A stretch of 24,000 nucleotides of DNA from Candidatus Microgenomates bacterium (lineage in GTDB: Bacteria > Patescibacteriota > Microgenomatia > UBA1406 > HO2-37-13b), in contig JANWIV010000003.1 in NCBI GenBank assembly GCA_025449735.1, forward strand, positions 329,408 through 353,407, read 5' to 3'. A program made the position numbers and the translations under genes. Shown piece by piece: positions 17,203 to 22,158 of the stretch (the first letter of the stretch is position 1; each line of letters opens with the position of its first letter). The notes under the pieces were generated by a model, which worked only from the letters and a program-made list of their open reading frames with translations, was not told where the DNA came from and ran no database searches.

Positions 17203-17982
17203 TCAGAGTAGCAATGGTAGGAAGATGGCGAGTGCGCCGACGATAATAATCATTATCGATGGGCCAATGATTCCGGCGTCAGGCAAGCTTTGAGTTGGTG
17301 CTGGAGTGTTAGTCGCCGTGGTTTGCGCTATTGGAGTTGGTGTGTTGGTGGCCCTGACGACAATTATGTCAGTTGGTGTCGGGGCTCCAGTTGAGGTCGG
17401 CGTCGGGGTGTTAGTCAATGTTGGGGTTGGTGTCGTCGTCGGTGTTAATGTCGGCGTTAACGTCCCGGTTGGAGTAATTGTCGGGGTCGGTGTTTTAGTT
17501 GGCGTCAAGGTCGGCGTCAGTGGTCCAGTTGGCGTCGGCGTGCGAGTGGGGGTTGGGGTATTGATTAATGTCGTTGTGCAAAGAGCTGAGGCTTCATCGT
17601 TGGTCTGACCACATTGATTGGAAGCGGAGACCACACAGTTATAGGTATGATTGACTTGCGGGGTAAAAGTTATTTTGACTTTTTGACCAGGGATGACATC
17701 GGTTTCAAGAATGCTGCCCTGCTTCATTATTTGCCCATTTGTTTTATCGATGATGGTATATCGATATGAAGTCTTGGCCTCTGGCATCCATTGGCAATAG
17801 GCCCCTTCAACTGGGCAAGTCGGCCCAGCAGCTTGATTCTCAGTGGTTTGACGATTATTGATTATGAGTAGTCCAGCTATTGTGCCAATAATAACCATAA
17901 ATAGAATCAAAAAAGGGAGCCATTTTTTTATGCCACCTTTTTTAGCAACAGCGCTAGTTGTTGGGTTTTGATTGGTATTCAC
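17203..17982 (-). CDS. cassette A, gene 2: FN3-like Cys-containing domain + Pro/Thr stalk + LPDAG-TM C-terminal sorting signal
   Basis: GTG start overlaps the upstream stop (GTGA). TM/signal region, then NQA|AGPTC-x6-C-x-W, then ~90 aa of PT repeats, then LPDAG (17272-17286) and a hydrophobic C-terminus. Paralog of 21355..22158. Confidence 0.8.
   Translation of the reverse strand: MNTNQNPTTSAVAKKGGIKKWLPFLILFMVIIGTIAGLLIINNRQTTENQAAGPTCPVEGAYCQWMPEAKTSYRYTIIDKTNGQIMKQGSILETDVIPGQKVKITFTPQVNHTYNCVVSASNQCGQTNDEASALCTTTLINTPTPTRTPTPTGPLTPTLTPTKTPTPTITPTGTLTPTLTPTTTPTPTLTNTPTPTSTGAPTPTDIIVVRATNTPTPIAQTTATNTPAPTQSLPDAGIIGPSIMIIIVGALAIFLPLLL
17293..17562 (-). repeat. Pro/Thr-coding low-complexity repeat inside 17203..17982
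   Basis: Residues 141-230 read TPTPTRTPTPTGPLTPTLTPTKTPTPTITPTGTLTPTLTPTTTPTPT... The antisense strand gives the spurious GVGV ORF 17306..17608. Confidence 0.85.
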
Positions 17983-18647
17983 TTTATGGTGTTACATAAT
18001 GGACAATTTAATTCGACATCAAGTTTTGGTAGTGGGCATTCAATAACTGGAGTTGGTGTTGGCGTCACGGCGGCACGAATTACCGTGACATTGGACCGTG
18101 AACAAACCGGGATACCGCGCAAGGCAAGGAGATAAAGTTGACAAGTTGAACCACTAGTGATTGAACCCGACACAGTAAAGTTTTCTGGATCTGGTCCATA
18201 TCTTCCTCCCCAGGAGACAGCGACGCTACATTTGCCATTGGATAAAATTGGATCAGCGCAATTGGTTGCTCTTGTGGCATAAGGAATACCAGGAATGGTT
18301 ATCTCATCCATTCTCTCTCTTATTGTGGCGCAAATTTCGTCCATTGGGGACAAAGTGTGGGCTGTAAATGAATATGTGCCATCGGGATTGGTGTTTACTT
18401 GAGATGGCGCTTCCATAGTCGCAGTGAATGAATTGTCACGACACCAACGGGGGACATCTGGCGCCATTGTGTCTACCGACTCGTCGGCTTTAGAACTACT
18501 GATTTGAGTTTGATAAACGAAGAAACCTAACACCGGCAAAGTGATTGCTAGCAGCATAAACGTCAAAATAGCAACATGACTGACTCTTTTTTTAGCAGGT
18601 TTGGCAACAAGATCTTCAATCGAAGTAAAATTCTGCTTACTATCCAT
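17979..18647 (-). CDS. cassette A, gene 1: exported Cys-containing protein with C-terminal CPLPK-x6-C-x2-C tail
   Basis: ORF track 17979..18683. I prefer ATG 18647 (MDSKQ) because TTGATT-N17-AACAAT-N7 precedes it. Long N-region, TM/signal helix, KA|DES, 9 Cys, TPTPTP linker, tail ECPLPKLDVELNCPLCNTIK. Confidence 0.75.
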   Translation of the reverse strand: MDSKQNFTSIEDLVAKPAKKRVSHVAILTFMLLAITLPVLGFFVYQTQISSSKADESVDTMAPDVPRWCRDNSFTATMEAPSQVNTNPDGTYSFTAHTLSPMDEICATIRERMDEITIPGIPYATRATNCADPILSNGKCSVAVSWGGRYGPDPENFTVSGSITSGSTCQLYLLALRGIPVCSRSNVTVIRAAVTPTPTPVIECPLPKLDVELNCPLCNTIK

Positions 18648-18654
18648 AACTATC

Positions 18655-18683
18655 ATTGTTGCAGAATACGGACTCAAAATCAA
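18655..18683 (-). promoter_or_regulatory. promoter of cassette A (TTGATT-N17-AACAAT, 7 nt before ATG 18647)
   Basis: Minus strand: TTGATT (18683-18678), a 17-nt spacer, AACAAT (18660-18655), gatagtt, ATG. Same geometry as the cassette B promoter. Confidence 0.45.
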
Positions 18684-18688
18684 TAAGA

Positions 18689-18702
18689 TGTATAATATCT
18701 AA
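18689..18702 (+). promoter_or_regulatory. -10 element TGTATAAT placed 6 nt before ATG 18703 (leaderless-type promoter)
   Basis: tgTATAAT at 18689-18696, spacer atctaa, ATG 18703. Confidence 0.45.
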
Positions 18703-20469: not shown

Positions 20470-20522
20470 ACAAAATGATTATTTTTTTCGCAGAAATTAG
20501 TAAAAGGAGTTTTTCTCGGTAG

Positions 20523-20551
20523 TTGACAAGGGCAATAAATATTGTCACAAT
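20523..20551 (+). promoter_or_regulatory. promoter of cassette B (TTGACA-N17-CACAAT, 7 nt before ATG 20559)
   Basis: TTGACA at 20523-20528, a 17-nt spacer ending in tgt, CACAAT at 20546-20551, taaggct, ATG 20559. Confidence 0.5.
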
Positions 20552-20558
20552 TAAGGCT

Positions 20559-21347
20559 ATGGATACCTCATCAAATTCTTCATTTCCACCTCAAAATACG
20601 ATTCCTACTAATGAGCCGATATCAAACCAATCACCTCCGACAATCAAATCGGCCAGTACCGCATCGAGTGCTACTTCTGGATCAAAAAAAAAGCTGATTG
20701 GAGGGATTATTGCGTTACTTTTAATCACCGGTACCATTGGGATTGGTTCTTATATGCTGCGCTCTAGGCAAACGACATTGACTCGTGCTGATGAGACAAG
20801 CGTTACACAATGTCAAAATCAAGGCGGAGTAATTAGACAAAATCAATGTGATGGTAAAGAAATCCCAATTGGTACTATCGGTTCTGGTGGTGATGGCCTT
20901 CAACTTTGTTGTAAAAATCCAAATGACACAAAAACTTGTCCGCTCCAATGCATACCAGTTAGTGAAGCCGGTAATTGTGAGGAATCCTCGAAATTAAGCG
21001 GTGGTTGTGGTATTGACGAGGTCTGTTGTACTCCAAAAACAATCGATCCTAGTACACCGCCGTCTGATCCTGTCGGTTGTTTTGAGTCATGCAGTAGTGA
21101 TAGCTCTTGTCAGAGCGGTTTGATATGTATGGCAGTCGACGGCTCATCAAAAAAATGTGTCAAGTATCCGGATTGCCAAGTTGGTAGCGGAAAGGATTGT
21201 TGGTGCAGTCTTCCACTTCCGATAACTTCGCCACCACCAGCAATTACGTCGCCGATTCCGACCATTCCTTCGGATTCATCGACACAATGCCCCGATCCAA
21301 AGCAAAATCTAAATGTCAAAGTGGAATGTTTGGATTGTGCCGATTAA
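20559..21347 (+). CDS. cassette B, gene 1: exported cysteine-rich protein with C-terminal CPDPK-x8-C-x2-C tail
   Basis: ORF track 20523..21347 starts at a TTG that is itself the -35 hexamer. ATG 20559 gives MDTSS. Long Ser/Thr/Pro N-region, TM/signal helix, RA|DET, 21 Cys (repeated C..C..CC modules), Pro-rich linker, tail QCPDPKQNLNVKVECLDCAD. Confidence 0.75.
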   Translation: MDTSSNSSFPPQNTIPTNEPISNQSPPTIKSASTASSATSGSKKKLIGGIIALLLITGTIGIGSYMLRSRQTTLTRADETSVTQCQNQGGVIRQNQCDGKEIPIGTIGSGGDGLQLCCKNPNDTKTCPLQCIPVSEAGNCEESSKLSGGCGIDEVCCTPKTIDPSTPPSDPVGCFESCSSDSSCQSGLICMAVDGSSKKCVKYPDCQVGSGKDCWCSLPLPITSPPPAITSPIPTIPSDSSTQCPDPKQNLNVKVECLDCAD

Positions 21348-21354
21348 AAAAAAA

Positions 21355-22158
21355 ATGAAAGCCATAAAAAGTCATAAAACTAGTCGTCGACAAATAATGA
21401 TCAGTATTATTTTGCTAATTCTGATTATCGGTCTTGGGGCTGGGCTTTTTGTAGTCCGGACTCAAGTCGATATTCGCGATCAAGCCGCCGGACCGAGTTG
21501 TACTATTTGGACAATGCGATGTCGCTGGGACAAAGTCGATGGAGTGACCAACTATCGTGTTATCGTGAAAGATTCAACTGGAAATACTATTACCAATACG
21601 ACAACGCCCGGGACTAGCCTCAATTTTAATGGTCGAGTTGGAGTCGCTTATACCTGTACGGTGACGGCGCTTTCTCACCAAAATCCTGAATGTTCAGAAT
21701 TGCCAAGTGGAAGCGGAACGGGAATTTGTACTAATACTAGTGTGCCCGCGCCATCGGAAACGGCGACACCAGCTCCGACTGTAAAAGCAATTGGAGGACC
21801 GGTAGCGACAGCCACTGTAACACCGACATTGACACCAACACCAAAAACAGGTACGCCAACTATAGCACCTTATACACCAACTCCGACAATTAGCGCACTT
21901 GGTGGCCCAGTGGCGACTAGTACACCAACACCAAAAGCAGGTACGCCAACTATAGCACCATTTACACCAACTCCGAGCTTAAGAATCGGTGGCTCAAGTG
22001 CAACCAACACACCCACGCCAACTAGCACCTCATCAATCGCCCAATCGACAAGCGTCCCAACCACAGTCACTAGCTTGCCAGAGACAGGAATTTTCACACC
22101 AACCATTTTTATCCTGGCGATTGGGTTTTTTGCAATACTGGTACCACTATTCTTGTAA
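21355..22158 (+). CDS. cassette B, gene 2: FN3-like Cys-containing domain + Pro/Thr stalk + LPETG-TM C-terminal sorting signal
   Basis: ORF track 21313..22158. ATG 21355 (MKAIKSHK) lies 7 nt after the upstream stop. TM/signal region, DQA|AGPSC-x6-C-x-W, PT-rich repeats, LPETG (22075-22089) and a hydrophobic C-terminus. Confidence 0.8.
   Translation: MKAIKSHKTSRRQIMISIILLILIIGLGAGLFVVRTQVDIRDQAAGPSCTIWTMRCRWDKVDGVTNYRVIVKDSTGNTITNTTTPGTSLNFNGRVGVAYTCTVTALSHQNPECSELPSGSGTGICTNTSVPAPSETATPAPTVKAIGGPVATATVTPTLTPTPKTGTPTIAPYTPTPTISALGGPVATSTPTPKAGTPTIAPFTPTPSLRIGGSSATNTPTPTSTSSIAQSTSVPTTVTSLPETGIFTPTIFILAIGFFAILVPLFL
21832..21976 (+). repeat. 90-bp-period tandem duplication inside the PT stalk of 21355..22158
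   Basis: 21832-21886 and 21922-21976 are identical at 52 of 55 positions (differences at 21847, 21870 and 21872). They encode ...TPTPK(T/A)GTPTIAP(Y/F)TPTP... Confidence 0.85.

What the first reader, a model, noticed from the sequence alone, without database searches (positions are those of the whole stretch)
17203..22158. Two diverged, outward-facing copies of a two-gene surface cassette bracketing a membrane-protein/GH18 pair
Seen in sequence: cassette A (minus strand, 18647->17979 then 17982->17203) and cassette B (plus strand, 20559->21347 then 21355->22158) share the same architecture. Gene 1 has a long non-hydrophobic N-region, one TM/signal helix, a conserved [KR]-A-D-E-[ST] just after it (SKADES / TRADET), a Cys-containing ectodomain that differs completely between copies, a Pro/Thr linker, and a conserved tail C-P-x-P-K-x(6-8)-C-x2-C at the extreme C-terminus. 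Gene 2 follows within 0-7 nt (a GTGA overlap in A). It has a TM/signal helix, Q-A-A-G-P-[ST]-C-x6-C-x-W, an FN3-like ~90-aa domain (Y-x-C-x-V-x-A), a long PT stalk and S-L-P-[DE]-[AT]-G-I plus a hydrophobic end. Both cassettes are preceded by the same promoter geometry (TTGAYN-N17-MACAAT-N7-ATG). They point outward from a small membrane protein and a GH18-like hydrolase. I do not recognise this gene pair as a named family. Inference: an ancient inverted duplication of a head-plus-stalk surface display module, with the variable Cys-rich heads diversifying. This would be plausible host or partner-cell attachment machinery in an epibiotic small-genome bacterium.
Basis: partly seen in the sequence, partly recalled or inferred. 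Interest (0 to 1): 0.75.

Follow-up and report, generated by a model that had tools for sequence, protein, structure and literature searches.

The report
Paired head-and-stalk surface protein genes
Two copies of an unnamed two-gene module sit here: a secreted protein with a variable head and a short three-cysteine tail, always encoded just before a cell-anchored stalk protein whose five-cysteine fibronectin-like domain probably receives that tail, a possible new way for very small bacteria to build surface fibres.

Summary
Both cassettes, the GTGA overlap, the motifs and the promoter geometry are at the stated coordinates.

Gene 2 belongs to a real, unnamed family (205 clusters at E<=1e-3). 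Each member has a TM/signal helix, an FN3 domain with five invariant Cys, a Pro/Thr stalk, and a sortase-like [LIVAP]Px[TSA]G motif with a hydrophobic end lacking the usual basic tail.

The gene-1 heads are unrelated to each other. All gene-1 proteins end in one portable tail: C-P-x-P..(alternating hydrophobic)..C-x-x-C.

In all 11 loci I could read (13 gene pairs), a tail-bearing gene lies -4 to +7 nt upstream of a five-Cys FN3 gene. Some proteins carry both the FN3 domain and the tail, and sit between a head gene and an anchor gene.

The tail has 3 Cys and the domain 5, both odd numbers. The modelled domain shows no A strand.

Best reading, inferred and not shown: a plug-and-socket, disulfide-locked head/adaptor/anchor assembly. 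It works like cohesin-dockerin or yeast Aga1-Aga2.

The "inverted duplication" idea is not supported, because A2 and B2 are the least similar pair in the family sample. The GH18/membrane-protein link holds only in close relatives. Any attachment function is untested.

The parts
18655..18683 (-). Promoter-like site of cassette A: TTGATT-N17-AACAAT, with the -10 box ending 7 nt before the A1 ATG. This implies a leaderless mRNA.
   Evidence: Conserved in orthologous locus L001. There the upstream ATG used in the NCBI gene call is out of frame, which supports the start at 18647.
17979..18647 (-). A1, gene-1 type (222 aa). It has a 24-aa polar N-region, a hydrophobic helix (18510-18575), a possible SKA|DE cleavage site, a six-Cys head of unknown fold and a short PT linker.
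   Evidence: Only two database relatives were found: itself and a 61%-identical orthologue. The AlphaFold2 model of the head was unusable (pLDDT 43).
17982..18038 (-). A1 three-Cys C-terminal tail, CPLPKLDVELNCPLCNTIK. This is the proposed 'plug'.
   Evidence: The same tail type ends 11 other proteins, each encoded directly upstream of a five-Cys FN3 gene.
17203..17982 (-). A2, gene-2 type (259 aa). It has a TM/signal helix (17860-17922), an FN3 domain, a PT stalk (17290-17559) and a C-terminal anchor.
17560..17844 (-). A2 five-Cys FN3 domain, the proposed 'socket'. C10, C17, W19, C70, C78 and C89 are invariant across 49 family members.
   Evidence: Alignment A4. Profile search found 205 family clusters. 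A homologue model has pLDDT above 90 and an FN3 fold.
17206..17289 (-). A2 C-terminal sorting or anchor signal, SLPDAG plus a 22-residue hydrophobic end with no basic residue.
   Evidence: The same class of ending occurs in 91 of 134 family proteins, with the motif 27-32 residues from the end in 87 of them.
18703..19119 (+). 138-aa multi-pass membrane protein, divergent from A1. Function unknown.
   Evidence: Homologues sit next to GH18 only in close relatives: the window, L002, L003 and a fragment in L001.
19151..20260 (+). GH18-family glycoside hydrolase with an N-terminal TM/signal segment. The motif FDGVLLDLE keeps the D-x-E of the catalytic DxxDxDxE motif.
   Evidence: Pfam PF00704, 2e-18. 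It is adjacent to cassettes in L002, L003 and L200, but not in 80 more distant GH18 loci.
20523..20551 (+). Promoter-like site of cassette B: TTGACA-N17-CACAAT, 7 nt before the B1 ATG.
20559..21347 (+). B1, gene-1 type (262 aa). It has a 44-aa polar N-region, a hydrophobic helix (20691-20762), TRA|DE, an 18-Cys head built of small disulfide-rich modules, and a PT linker.
   Evidence: It finds only itself in the 5.8-billion-protein search. The orthologues in L002 and L003 have heads with 10 and 4 Cys.
21288..21344 (+). B1 three-Cys C-terminal tail, CPDPKQNLNVKVECLDCAD.
   Evidence: The orthologous tails are MCPDPNQKINVRVECVSCAD and QCPNIVVTVSCLSCKQ.
21355..22158 (+). B2, gene-2 type (267 aa). 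It has a TM/signal helix (21394-21459), a five-Cys FN3 domain (21478-21756), a PT stalk (21757-22071) and an SLPETG plus hydrophobic end (22072-22155).
   Evidence: Orthologues are P0004 and P0015.

Best explanation
Each cassette encodes a two-part cell-surface assembly. Gene 2 is the anchor and stalk. It is exported by its N-terminal hydrophobic segment and fixed to the envelope by a sortase-like C-terminal signal ([LIVAP]Px[TSA]G plus a hydrophobic end). It holds an N-terminal five-Cys FN3 domain away from the cell on a Pro/Thr stalk, which may be glycosylated.

Gene 1 is a secreted, fast-evolving head. It has no anchor of its own. Its C-terminal 19-residue tail is proposed to be an amphipathic beta-strand with one Cys at its start and C-x-x-C at its end.

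I propose that the tail plugs into the FN3 domain of the protein encoded next to it. It would lie where the domain's missing A strand belongs, and be locked by at least one intermolecular disulfide. Proteins that carry both an FN3 socket and a tail would act as adaptors, giving head-adaptor-anchor chains.

Shown: the architectures, the family, the strict gene adjacency, the existence of the adaptor architecture, the invariant 5 and 3 cysteines, and the FN3 fold.

Inferred: the physical tail-FN3 contact, the disulfide lock, signal-peptide cleavage, sortase processing, and any adhesive role of the heads.
For: (1) Adjacency. In 11 of 11 loci where DNA upstream of a five-Cys FN3 gene could be read, the preceding gene ends in the tail. 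That gives 13 pairs, with gaps of -4 to +7 nt wherever the gene-2 start is unambiguous. The loci are window A and B, L001, L002, L003, L117, L118, L199, L200, L202 and L203. Among roughly 2000 ORFs of 80 control loci, the loose tail pattern matched two short (63-66 aa) ORFs. One of these (L175) also has a C-P start. Neither control locus holds a five-Cys FN3 gene.

(2) Modularity. P0058, P0061, P0073 and P0128 combine the FN3 socket with the tail in place of the anchor. In L117 and L118 such proteins sit between a head-tail gene and an FN3-anchor gene. The number of tails equals the number of sockets in every complete locus.

(3) Cysteine arithmetic. The domain has five invariant Cys and the tail has three. 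72 of 105 family proteins have exactly five Cys, and 89 of 105 have an odd number. The three FN3-plus-tail proteins counted have eight. 8 of 9 complete gene-1 proteins have an odd total, meaning an even-numbered head plus 3. This holds even though head Cys number varies between 4 and 18.

(4) Structure. The AlphaFold2 model of P0058 gives a confident FN3 sandwich with strands B to G only. The first strand starts 5 residues before the conserved Trp, and the N-terminal Cys lies in a low-confidence segment. Pfam fn3 matches begin at profile position 13-14 of 84. Foldseek best matches are FN3 domains, TM-score about 0.7.

(5) Tail shape. The tail has a hydrophobic-x-hydrophobic-x-hydrophobic pattern. 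The Cys1-Cys2 spacing is usually 13 residues, about the length of an FN3 domain when extended. This is read directly from the sequences.

(6) Feasibility in this kind of organism. Published surveys report a sortase family in more than half of CPR genomes (near-universal in Microgenomates). They also report enrichment of an MdbA-like disulfide oxidoreductase plus VKOR (PMC6744442). The same anchor type ends other PT-rich proteins in related contigs.
Against: - No direct test of the contact was possible. The AlphaFold2 model of P0058, which has both socket and tail, left the tail undocked at pLDDT 57-62.
- One gene-1 protein (L203) has an even Cys total of 10.
- The 11 loci were reached starting from gene 2 and include orthologues. 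They represent roughly 6-7 independent lineages.
- The anchor lacks the basic tail of classical sortase signals. The window proteins do not hit the LPXTG models, and only 1 of 38 relatives does.
- The N-terminal hydrophobic segments are about 21 residues long, and the segment after them (Q-x-x-R-Q-R-A) is not a canonical signal-peptidase site. Cleavage is therefore uncertain.
- No sortase gene lies in the window.
Confidence: 0.5

Rival explanations
1. The two genes are co-transcribed but their products do not bind each other. The three-Cys tail would be an alternative C-terminal sorting or attachment signal, or a self-contained disulfide or metal knot. Some other machinery would recognise it, and each protein would reach the surface independently.
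For: Within the FN3 family the tail occupies exactly the position of the LPxxG-hydrophobic anchor, after the PT stalk. Alternative sorting signals behave this way. AlphaFold2 did not dock the tail on the FN3 domain of the same chain. C-x-x-C can close on itself or bind metal.
Against: A generic signal would not need to be encoded immediately upstream of a five-Cys FN3 gene in 11 of 11 loci. This reading leaves the invariant fifth cysteine of the FN3 domain unexplained. It also leaves the one-to-one match of tails and sockets per locus unexplained. No candidate processing enzyme is conserved next to the cassettes.
Confidence: 0.25
2. The cassettes encode a sortase-assembled pilus of the Gram-positive type. 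The Lys of C-P-x-P-K in gene 1 would be the nucleophile that a pilus sortase joins to the LPxxG threonine of gene 2.
For: Both window tails and one other have C-P-x-P-K. Gene 2 ends in an LPxTG-like motif. Sortases are common in CPR genomes (PMC6744442).
Against: The Lys is not conserved: other tails read CPTPG, CPLPA, CPVPS, CPLPQ, CPIPN, CPDPN and CPN. There is no sortase gene in the window or in the loci read. Joining gene 2's C-terminus to gene 1 would leave the complex without an anchor.
Confidence: 0.07
3. The mirror arrangement arose by a local inverted duplication of one cassette around the membrane-protein/GH18 pair.
For: The two cassettes have the same architecture, the same promoter geometry and opposite orientation.
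Against: A2 and B2 are the least similar pair in the family sample: 22.5% identity, ranks 48/48 and 46/48. The heads are unrelated. Relatives carry the B-type cassette in other orders and orientations next to GH18.
Confidence: 0.1
4. The resemblance is an artefact of low-complexity Pro/Thr tracts and chance short motifs.
For: Much of the full-length gene-2 alignment is PT tract. The gene-1 pairwise scores are not significant.
Against: The domain-only comparison gives E=4e-6. A profile of the domain finds 73 clusters at E<=1e-10. There are five invariant Cys plus Trp. The tail recurs across lineages.
Confidence: 0.02

Closest known systems
Sortase-anchored LPXTG surface proteins of monoderm bacteria (MSCRAMM-type, with a Pro/Thr-rich wall-spanning stalk)
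   Same: Gene 2 has an N-terminal export segment, an Ig-like (FN3) domain, a PT-rich stalk, and a C-terminal [LIVAP]Px[TSA]G motif (LPETG in B2) followed by a hydrophobic segment at a fixed distance from the end.
   Different: There is no basic tail after the hydrophobic segment. The motif is degenerate. The window proteins miss PF00746 and the NCBIfam LPXTG models. The ligand-binding part is supplied by a separate gene.
Cohesin-dockerin system of cellulosomes, including adaptor scaffoldins and sortase/SLH-anchored scaffoldins
   Same: The logic matches: a small C-terminal module on a variable 'payload' protein plugs into a beta-sandwich module on a PT-linked scaffold that is anchored to the cell. 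Adaptor proteins carry both socket and plug. This is comparable with L117 and L118.
   Different: Not homologous. The tail is 19 residues with three Cys, not a roughly 70-residue Ca-binding dockerin. The socket is an FN3 domain, not a cohesin jelly roll. The proposed lock is a disulfide, and the binding itself is not shown here.
Yeast a-agglutinin Aga1p-Aga2p
   Same: A small binding subunit with no anchor of its own is held by disulfide bonds on a Ser/Thr-rich, wall-anchored stalk subunit. This is the same division of labour proposed here.
   Different: It is eukaryotic and unrelated in sequence, and uses a GPI/glucan anchor. Here the disulfide link is inferred only from odd cysteine counts.
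Donor-strand-exchange pili: chaperone-usher pili and the CPR-specific Pam pili (Troman et al., bioRxiv 2026, doi 10.64898/2026.03.03.709456)
   Same: An incomplete Ig-like fold is completed by a strand from the neighbouring subunit. In Pam pili a terminal FnIII-containing protein with a C-terminal TM helix (PamR) is proposed to anchor the fibre in a CPR bacterium.
   Different: Pam pilins are 39-55 kDa two-domain proteins polymerised with PapD-like chaperones. No such chaperone or pilin is in the window or in the related loci read. Here the donor would be a C-terminal tail, the chains are 2-3 subunits long, and cysteines are central.

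Membership tests
Fibronectin type III domain (Pfam PF00041) | Seven-strand beta-sandwich fold with conserved Trp (strand B) and Tyr (strand F) | tested here: met
   The AlphaFold2 model of family member P0058 has pLDDT 90-97 over residues 51-120. Foldseek against the PDB finds FN3 domains at TM-score about 0.7, e.g. 6hyf and 5dft. W19 is invariant and Y68 nearly invariant. The window proteins themselves were not modelled.
Fibronectin type III domain (Pfam PF00041) | Significant match to the family HMM | tested here: inconclusive
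   A2 and B2 give no hit at E<=0.1. 10 of 38 relatives hit, best 8.2e-7.
Fibronectin type III domain (Pfam PF00041) | N-terminal A strand present | tested here: not met
   The model has strands B to G only. The fn3 HMM matches start at profile position 13-14 of 84. This rests on a model and on local alignments, not on a solved structure.
LPXTG sortase substrate (PF00746 / TIGR01167) | LPXTG pentapeptide near the C-terminus | tested here: inconclusive
   B2 has LPETG and A2 has LPDAG. The family consensus is [LIVAP]Px[TSA]G or APTG, found 27-32 residues from the end in 87 of the 91 (of 134) proteins of this class.
LPXTG sortase substrate (PF00746 / TIGR01167) | Hydrophobic segment followed by a positively charged tail | tested here: not met
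   The hydrophobic segment is present, but there is no Lys or Arg in the last 6 residues of A2, B2 or the 91 proteins of this class.
LPXTG sortase substrate (PF00746 / TIGR01167) | Match to the anchor HMMs | tested here: not met
   No hit for A2 or B2. 1 of 38 relatives hits PF00746 at 5e-5.
LPXTG sortase substrate (PF00746 / TIGR01167) | A sortase encoded in the genome | not testable with these tools
   None is in the 24-kb window. The rest of the genome could not be retrieved. The literature reports sortases in most Microgenomates (PMC6744442).
Donor-strand-exchange pili (chaperone-usher / Pam) | Dedicated PapD/FimC-like chaperone in the operon | tested here: not met
   No such Pfam family was found in the window or in L117 and the other loci read.
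Donor-strand-exchange pili (chaperone-usher / Pam) | Strand from the neighbouring subunit completes an incomplete Ig-like fold | not testable with these tools
   This is a hypothesis only.
Sortase-assembled Gram-positive pili | Conserved pilin-motif lysine and an adjacent pilus-specific sortase | tested here: not met
   The Lys of CPxPK is absent from most tails. There is no adjacent sortase.
Cohesin-dockerin | Dockerin with duplicated Ca-binding segments, and a cohesin domain | tested here: not met
   No Pfam dockerin or cohesin hit. The tail is 19 residues and Cys-based. This is a functional analogy only.
Glycoside hydrolase family 18 (central gene 19151-20260) | Match to PF00704 above its gathering score, and the catalytic DxxDxDxE motif | tested here: inconclusive
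   Pfam gives 67.6 bits against a cut-off of 29.6. The motif reads D-G-V-L-L-D-L-E. The catalytic D-x-E is kept and the middle Asp is replaced by Leu (read from the sequence). The HMM criterion is met. The motif is only partly kept.

The most novel reading that the evidence does not exclude
This would be a previously undescribed way of building bacterial surface fibres. A C-terminal three-cysteine beta-strand 'plug' on one secreted protein would replace the missing A strand of a five-cysteine FN3 'socket' on the next protein, and be locked by intermolecular disulfides. The result would be head-adaptor-anchor chains with no chaperone, usher or pilus sortase, and with freely exchangeable, fast-evolving heads.
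Probability: 0.35. Interest if true: 0.8.

Novelty: new variant of a known kind. Interest (0 to 1): 0.64.

Why it matters
How ultra-small, host-dependent bacteria recognise and hold on to partners is largely unknown. Beyond type IV pili, the only CPR-specific fibre I found in the literature searched is the Pam pilus, described in a 2026 preprint.

This module is an unnamed family of at least 205 sequence clusters, with a simple and testable design rule: a tail gene comes next to a socket gene.

If the plug-and-socket reading is right, it offers three things:
- a minimal, enzyme-free, covalent protein-coupling pair, of interest as a protein-engineering tool;
- a way to find the variable 'head' proteins, which are candidate specificity determinants, in metagenomes by their tail even though the heads themselves are orphans;
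- an example of strand complementation combined with disulfide locking.

If it is wrong, the family still defines a widespread anchor type that lacks the canonical basic tail.

Tried and rejected
- Searching 185,579 species genomes with a degenerate DNA pattern for G-P-x-C-P-x-x-G-A-x-C-x-W returned 113 stretches, all of them chance matches in GC-rich genomes. It did not find even the source genome. The scan gave no taxonomy and no loci.
- Exact look-ups of the window GH18, of P0002 and of P0040 found nothing on record.
- The metagenome scan seeded with GH18 gave 80 loci without any cassette. They are useful only as a negative control and to show that the GH18 link is lineage-specific.
- The AlphaFold2 model of the A1 head was too poor to use (pLDDT 43).
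- The AlphaFold2 model of P0058 did not place the tail.
- The afdb50 fold library was unavailable, so no organism names were obtained.
- The PDB sequence-profile search found no relative better than E=0.016.
- Searching papers for the run accessions found nothing.
- Considered and rejected: a lipoprotein reading of the first FN3 cysteine (no lipobox, and it lies 10-12 residues beyond the helix); a type IV prepilin signal (no G|F-x-x-x-E); the [KR]ADE[ST] motif as a family signature (absent in most lineages).

Full report
**1. What is in the window**

- A1: 18647->17979 on the minus strand, 222 aa.
- A2: 17982->17203, 259 aa. It starts with GTG, and the start overlaps the A1 stop as GTGA.
- B1: 20559->21347, 262 aa.
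- B2: 21355->22158, 267 aa, 7 nt after B1.

Between the cassettes lie a 138-aa multi-pass membrane protein (18703-19119) and a GH18 hydrolase (19151-20260; Pfam PF00704, 2e-18). DprA follows on the opposite strand (22225-23313). None of the four cassette proteins matches any Pfam or NCBIfam model at E<=0.1, apart from noise.

The pattern TTGAYN-N17-MACAAT-N7-ATG occurs exactly twice in the window, at the two gene-1 starts. It occurs in none of 100 shuffles, although the pattern was derived from these same two sites. An orthologous contig has TTGATT-N17-AACAAT-N6-ATG. A -10 box ending 6-7 nt before the ATG implies leaderless transcripts. In that orthologue, the upstream ATG used by the public gene call for A1 (P0002, 225 aa) is out of frame. 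This supports 18647 as the true start.

**2. Are the two cassettes related beyond chance?**

*Gene 2: yes.* Full-length BLASTP gives E=8e-15. The FN3-like domain alone, without the Pro/Thr tract, gives E=4e-6.

I built a profile from the A2 and B2 domains plus one relative and searched 1.84 billion representative proteins. It found 205 clusters at E<=1e-3 and 73 at E<=1e-10, mostly proteins of about 250 aa.

A 49-sequence alignment shows five invariant cysteines and one invariant tryptophan. In A2-domain numbering these are C10, C17, W19, C70, C78 and C89.

*Gene 1: only in part.* The heads are unrelated. A1 finds only itself and one 61%-identical orthologue among 5.8 billion proteins. B1 finds only itself.

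What A1 and B1 share is the N-terminal layout and the C-terminal tail:
- A1: CPLPKLDVELNCPLCNTIK
- B1: CPDPKQNLNVKVECLDCAD

The tail is too short for pairwise statistics. The [KR]ADE[ST] motif after the helix is not kept in other lineages.

**3. The gene-2 family**

Members share four parts.
- A basic N-terminus and a hydrophobic helix of about 21 residues, followed by a conserved polar stretch (often Q-x-x-R-Q-R-A).
- The five-Cys domain.
- A Pro/Thr stalk.
- A C-terminal ending.

The 134 full-size family proteins fall into these C-terminal classes:

| C-terminal ending | Proteins |
|---|---|
| [LIVAP]Px[TSA]G or APTG motif (27-32 residues from the end in 87), then a hydrophobic end with no Lys/Arg | 91 |
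| Hydrophobic end, no motif | 15 |
| TM helix plus basic end | 13 |
| The gene-1 type three-Cys tail | 4 |
| Truncated or other | 11 |

An AlphaFold2 model of one member (P0058, 38-sequence alignment) gives pLDDT 90-97 over the domain. Foldseek against the PDB returns FN3 domains, including integrin beta4 FnIII-3 and fibronectin, with target-normalised TM-scores around 0.7. Pfam fn3 is hit by 10 of 38 members and the LPXTG anchor model by 1 of 38. No solved structure is related by sequence (best E=0.016).

The same anchor type, again without a basic tail, ends other PT-rich proteins in contigs that carry a related GH18 gene. It therefore looks like a general sorting signal in these organisms. 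Published surveys report a sortase family in more than half of CPR genomes, near-universal in Microgenomates (PMC6744442).

**4. Synteny, the decisive observation**

I read the DNA around ten family members from other assemblies and compared them with the window. In every case the gene immediately upstream ends in the three-Cys tail.

| Locus | Arrangement |
|---|---|
| L001 | Orthologue of cassette A, with the divergent membrane-protein gene start |
| L002 | membrane protein - GH18 - gene 1 - gene 2 |
| L003 | gene 1 - gene 2 - membrane protein - GH18, then DprA on the opposite strand |
| L117 | 420-aa head with tail; then P0058 (FN3 plus tail); then a 455-aa protein with Laminin-G, FN3, stalk and anchor |
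| L118 | tail fragment; then P0061 (FN3 plus tail); then another FN3 gene |
| L199 | tail ...SCPLPQAVPNVRISCPICK, then P0010 |
| L200 | GH18 - gene 1 - P0012 |
| L201 | after P0012, a further Cys-rich gene-1-like gene |
| L202 | head with a classical signal peptide, then P0053 |
| L203 | head with a classical signal peptide, then P0082 |

- Together with the window, this makes 11 of 11 loci and 13 pairs. Intergenic distances are -4 to +7 nt wherever the gene-2 start is unambiguous.
- The tail consensus is C-P-x-P-x(2-5)-Φ-x-Φ-x-Φ-x-C-[PLV]-x-C-x(0-4)-end, where Φ is a hydrophobic residue.
- As a control, I examined 80 loci fetched through more distant GH18 homologues (32-45% identity), about 2000 ORFs. 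None holds a five-Cys FN3 gene. A loose form of the tail pattern matched only two short ORFs (63 and 66 aa) there.
- The cassette is therefore a conserved unit. Its link to the GH18/membrane-protein pair is confined to close relatives.
- The loci were reached from gene 2 and include orthologues, so the sample amounts to roughly six or seven independent lineages.

**5. What the anatomy suggests**

*Modularity.* The tail is a portable module. In the FN3 family it can replace the anchor. Proteins that carry both socket and tail sit between a head-tail gene and a socket-anchor gene. In every complete locus the number of tails equals the number of five-Cys domains.

*Cysteine arithmetic.* The domain has an odd, invariant number of cysteines (5), and so does the tail (3).
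- 72 of 105 family proteins have exactly five Cys, and 89 of 105 have an odd number.
- The three FN3-plus-tail proteins counted have eight.
- Eight of nine complete gene-1 proteins have odd totals (9, 21, 9, 13, 7, 9, 9, 13). That is an even-numbered head plus three, and it holds although head content ranges from 4 to 18 Cys, even among orthologues.
- The exception is L203, with 10.

Unpaired cysteines are unusual in exported proteins, so two odd partners encoded side by side point to at least one intermolecular disulfide. CPR genomes are reported to be enriched in an MdbA-like oxidoreductase and VKOR (PMC6744442).

*Missing strand.*
- The model of the domain contains strands B to G only. The first strand begins five residues before the conserved Trp. 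The segment holding the first cysteine is of low confidence.
- The fn3 HMM matches start at profile position 13-14.
- The tail has the alternating hydrophobic pattern of a beta-strand. Its first two cysteines are usually 13 residues apart, about the pole-to-pole length of an FN3 domain when extended.
- In canonical FN3 topology (established knowledge), strand A starts near the FG loop and ends near the AB loop and the end of strand G. Those are the places where C78, C10 and C89 sit.
- A tail lying in the A-strand position would therefore bring its cysteines next to the three peripheral cysteines of the domain. C17 and C70 would be the core B-F pair.
- This geometric argument is inference. I had no coordinates and no multimer prediction.

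**6. Best explanation and rivals**

*Best explanation (confidence about 0.5).* This is a plug-and-socket surface assembly. Gene 2 is an envelope-anchored stalk presenting an FN3 socket. Gene 1 is a secreted, rapidly diversifying head that is retained by inserting its tail into the socket and being locked by disulfide. Adaptor proteins extend the chain.

*Evidence against:*
- AlphaFold2 did not dock the tail of P0058 onto its own domain (pLDDT 57-62).
- There is one parity exception.
- The anchor is non-canonical.
- Signal-peptide cleavage is uncertain.

*Rivals:*
- The tail is an independent sorting signal or a self-contained knot (0.25). This is favoured by its positional equivalence with the anchor. 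It is disfavoured by the strict adjacency and by the unexplained fifth cysteine.
- A sortase-type pilus using the Lys of CPxPK (0.07). The Lys is not conserved, and no sortase is adjacent.
- A local inverted duplication as the origin of the arrangement (0.1). A2 and B2 are the least similar pair in the sample: 22.5% identity, ranks 48/48 and 46/48.
- A low-complexity artefact. This is refuted.

**7. Comparison with known systems**

The module works like cohesin-dockerin (payload with a C-terminal plug, scaffold with beta-sandwich sockets, adaptors, cell anchoring). It also works like yeast Aga1p-Aga2p (a binding subunit disulfide-linked to a Ser/Thr-rich wall-anchored stalk). It is a member of neither.

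Gene 2 resembles sortase substrates but fails the basic-tail and HMM criteria.

The nearest described CPR system is the Pam pilus (doi 10.64898/2026.03.03.709456).
- It shares Ig-like folds, donor-strand exchange, and an FnIII-containing, TM-anchored terminator.
- It differs in using large two-domain pilins and PapD-like chaperones, which are absent here.

My literature searches found no description of this gene pair.

**8. Verdict**

- The family is unnamed and the pairing rule is new.
- The mechanism is a well-motivated inference that simple experiments or multimer prediction could settle.
- Taxonomy could not be established with the tools. A CPR-type organism is suggested only by context: contigs of 356 kb to 0.9 Mb, gene content, and groundwater-type metagenome sources.

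Noticed in passing
window 20320-20470: A perfect 17-nt inverted repeat (TTACTTTTGTCTTTTTT / AAAAAAGACAAAAGTAA) encloses 117 nt. It folds into a long hairpin (-54 kcal/mol, z = -4.7). It lies in the roughly 300-nt spacer between GH18 and the B1 promoter. The orthologous locus L002 has no such spacer (7 nt between the called GH18 and gene-1 genes). There is no Rfam match. It could be a small mobile element, an insulating terminator or an unknown RNA.
   Followed up: partly
window 23572-23645 (-): A tRNA gene (Rfam 47 bits) for which ARAGORN reports a four-base anticodon 'ggca' and no amino-acid assignment. It may have an enlarged anticodon loop. The surrounding 23400-24000 region is unusually GC-rich (0.49).
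   Followed up: no
window 3646-5325 (+), with neighbours 5322-7996: A PMT_2-type (protein O-mannosyltransferase-like) membrane glycosyltransferase sits next to methyltransferases and a GT4 glycosyltransferase. The Pro/Thr stalks of the cassette proteins would be natural O-glycosylation targets.
   Followed up: no
window 536-2929 (+): A 797-aa membrane ATPase with TrwB/VirD4-type coupling-protein and HerA/DUF87 domains (Pfam 2.7e-8 and 8.7e-7).
   Followed up: no
window 11125-17141 (-): Directly downstream of A2, on the same strand, is a run of four further exported proteins of 204, 736, 722 and 271 aa. None matches a Pfam family above threshold. The 722-aa protein is very Cys- and PT-rich. The 271-aa protein has a pilin-like N-terminus. 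Cassette A may head a larger surface-protein cluster.
   Followed up: partly
B1 (window 20800-21230); family proteins P0005, P0016, P0018, P0021, P0110; L200 gene 1: Two small disulfide-rich modules recur. One is roughly C..GG....C...IG....CC.P and the other is C..C....DC....C..G.C. They occur both in heads and inserted into stalks. Single members weakly hit the DUF7107 and Dumpy DPY modules. Orthologous heads differ by gain or loss of these modules (18, 10 and 4 Cys).
   Followed up: partly
Gene-2 family N-termini (e.g. window 17845-17860 and 21460-21480; alignment A6): A conserved polar segment, often Q-Q-Q-x-I-R-Q-R-A, lies between the hydrophobic helix and the FN3 domain. It is not a canonical A-x-A signal-peptidase site. 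It might mark a dedicated processing step.
   Followed up: no
L131 11282-12538, L191 3444-4574, L194 9577-10821: Other PT-rich proteins without the five-Cys FN3 domain end in the same IP[SP][AS]G plus hydrophobic signal with no basic tail. The anchor therefore looks like a general sorting signal in these organisms.
   Followed up: partly
Gene-1 starts: window 18647 and 20559; L002, L200, L201: Gene-1 proteins repeatedly begin with Met-Asp (MDSK, MDTS, MDKV, MDTK, MDYT). They carry unusually long polar N-regions of 24-75 residues before the hydrophobic helix. Two lineages (L202, L203) instead have short classical signal peptides.
   Followed up: no
L201 1027-1482: Immediately after the gene-2 homologue P0012, a second gene-1-like gene begins (polar N-region, helix, Cys-rich start). 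This suggests that cassettes can be arrayed in tandem.
   Followed up: no
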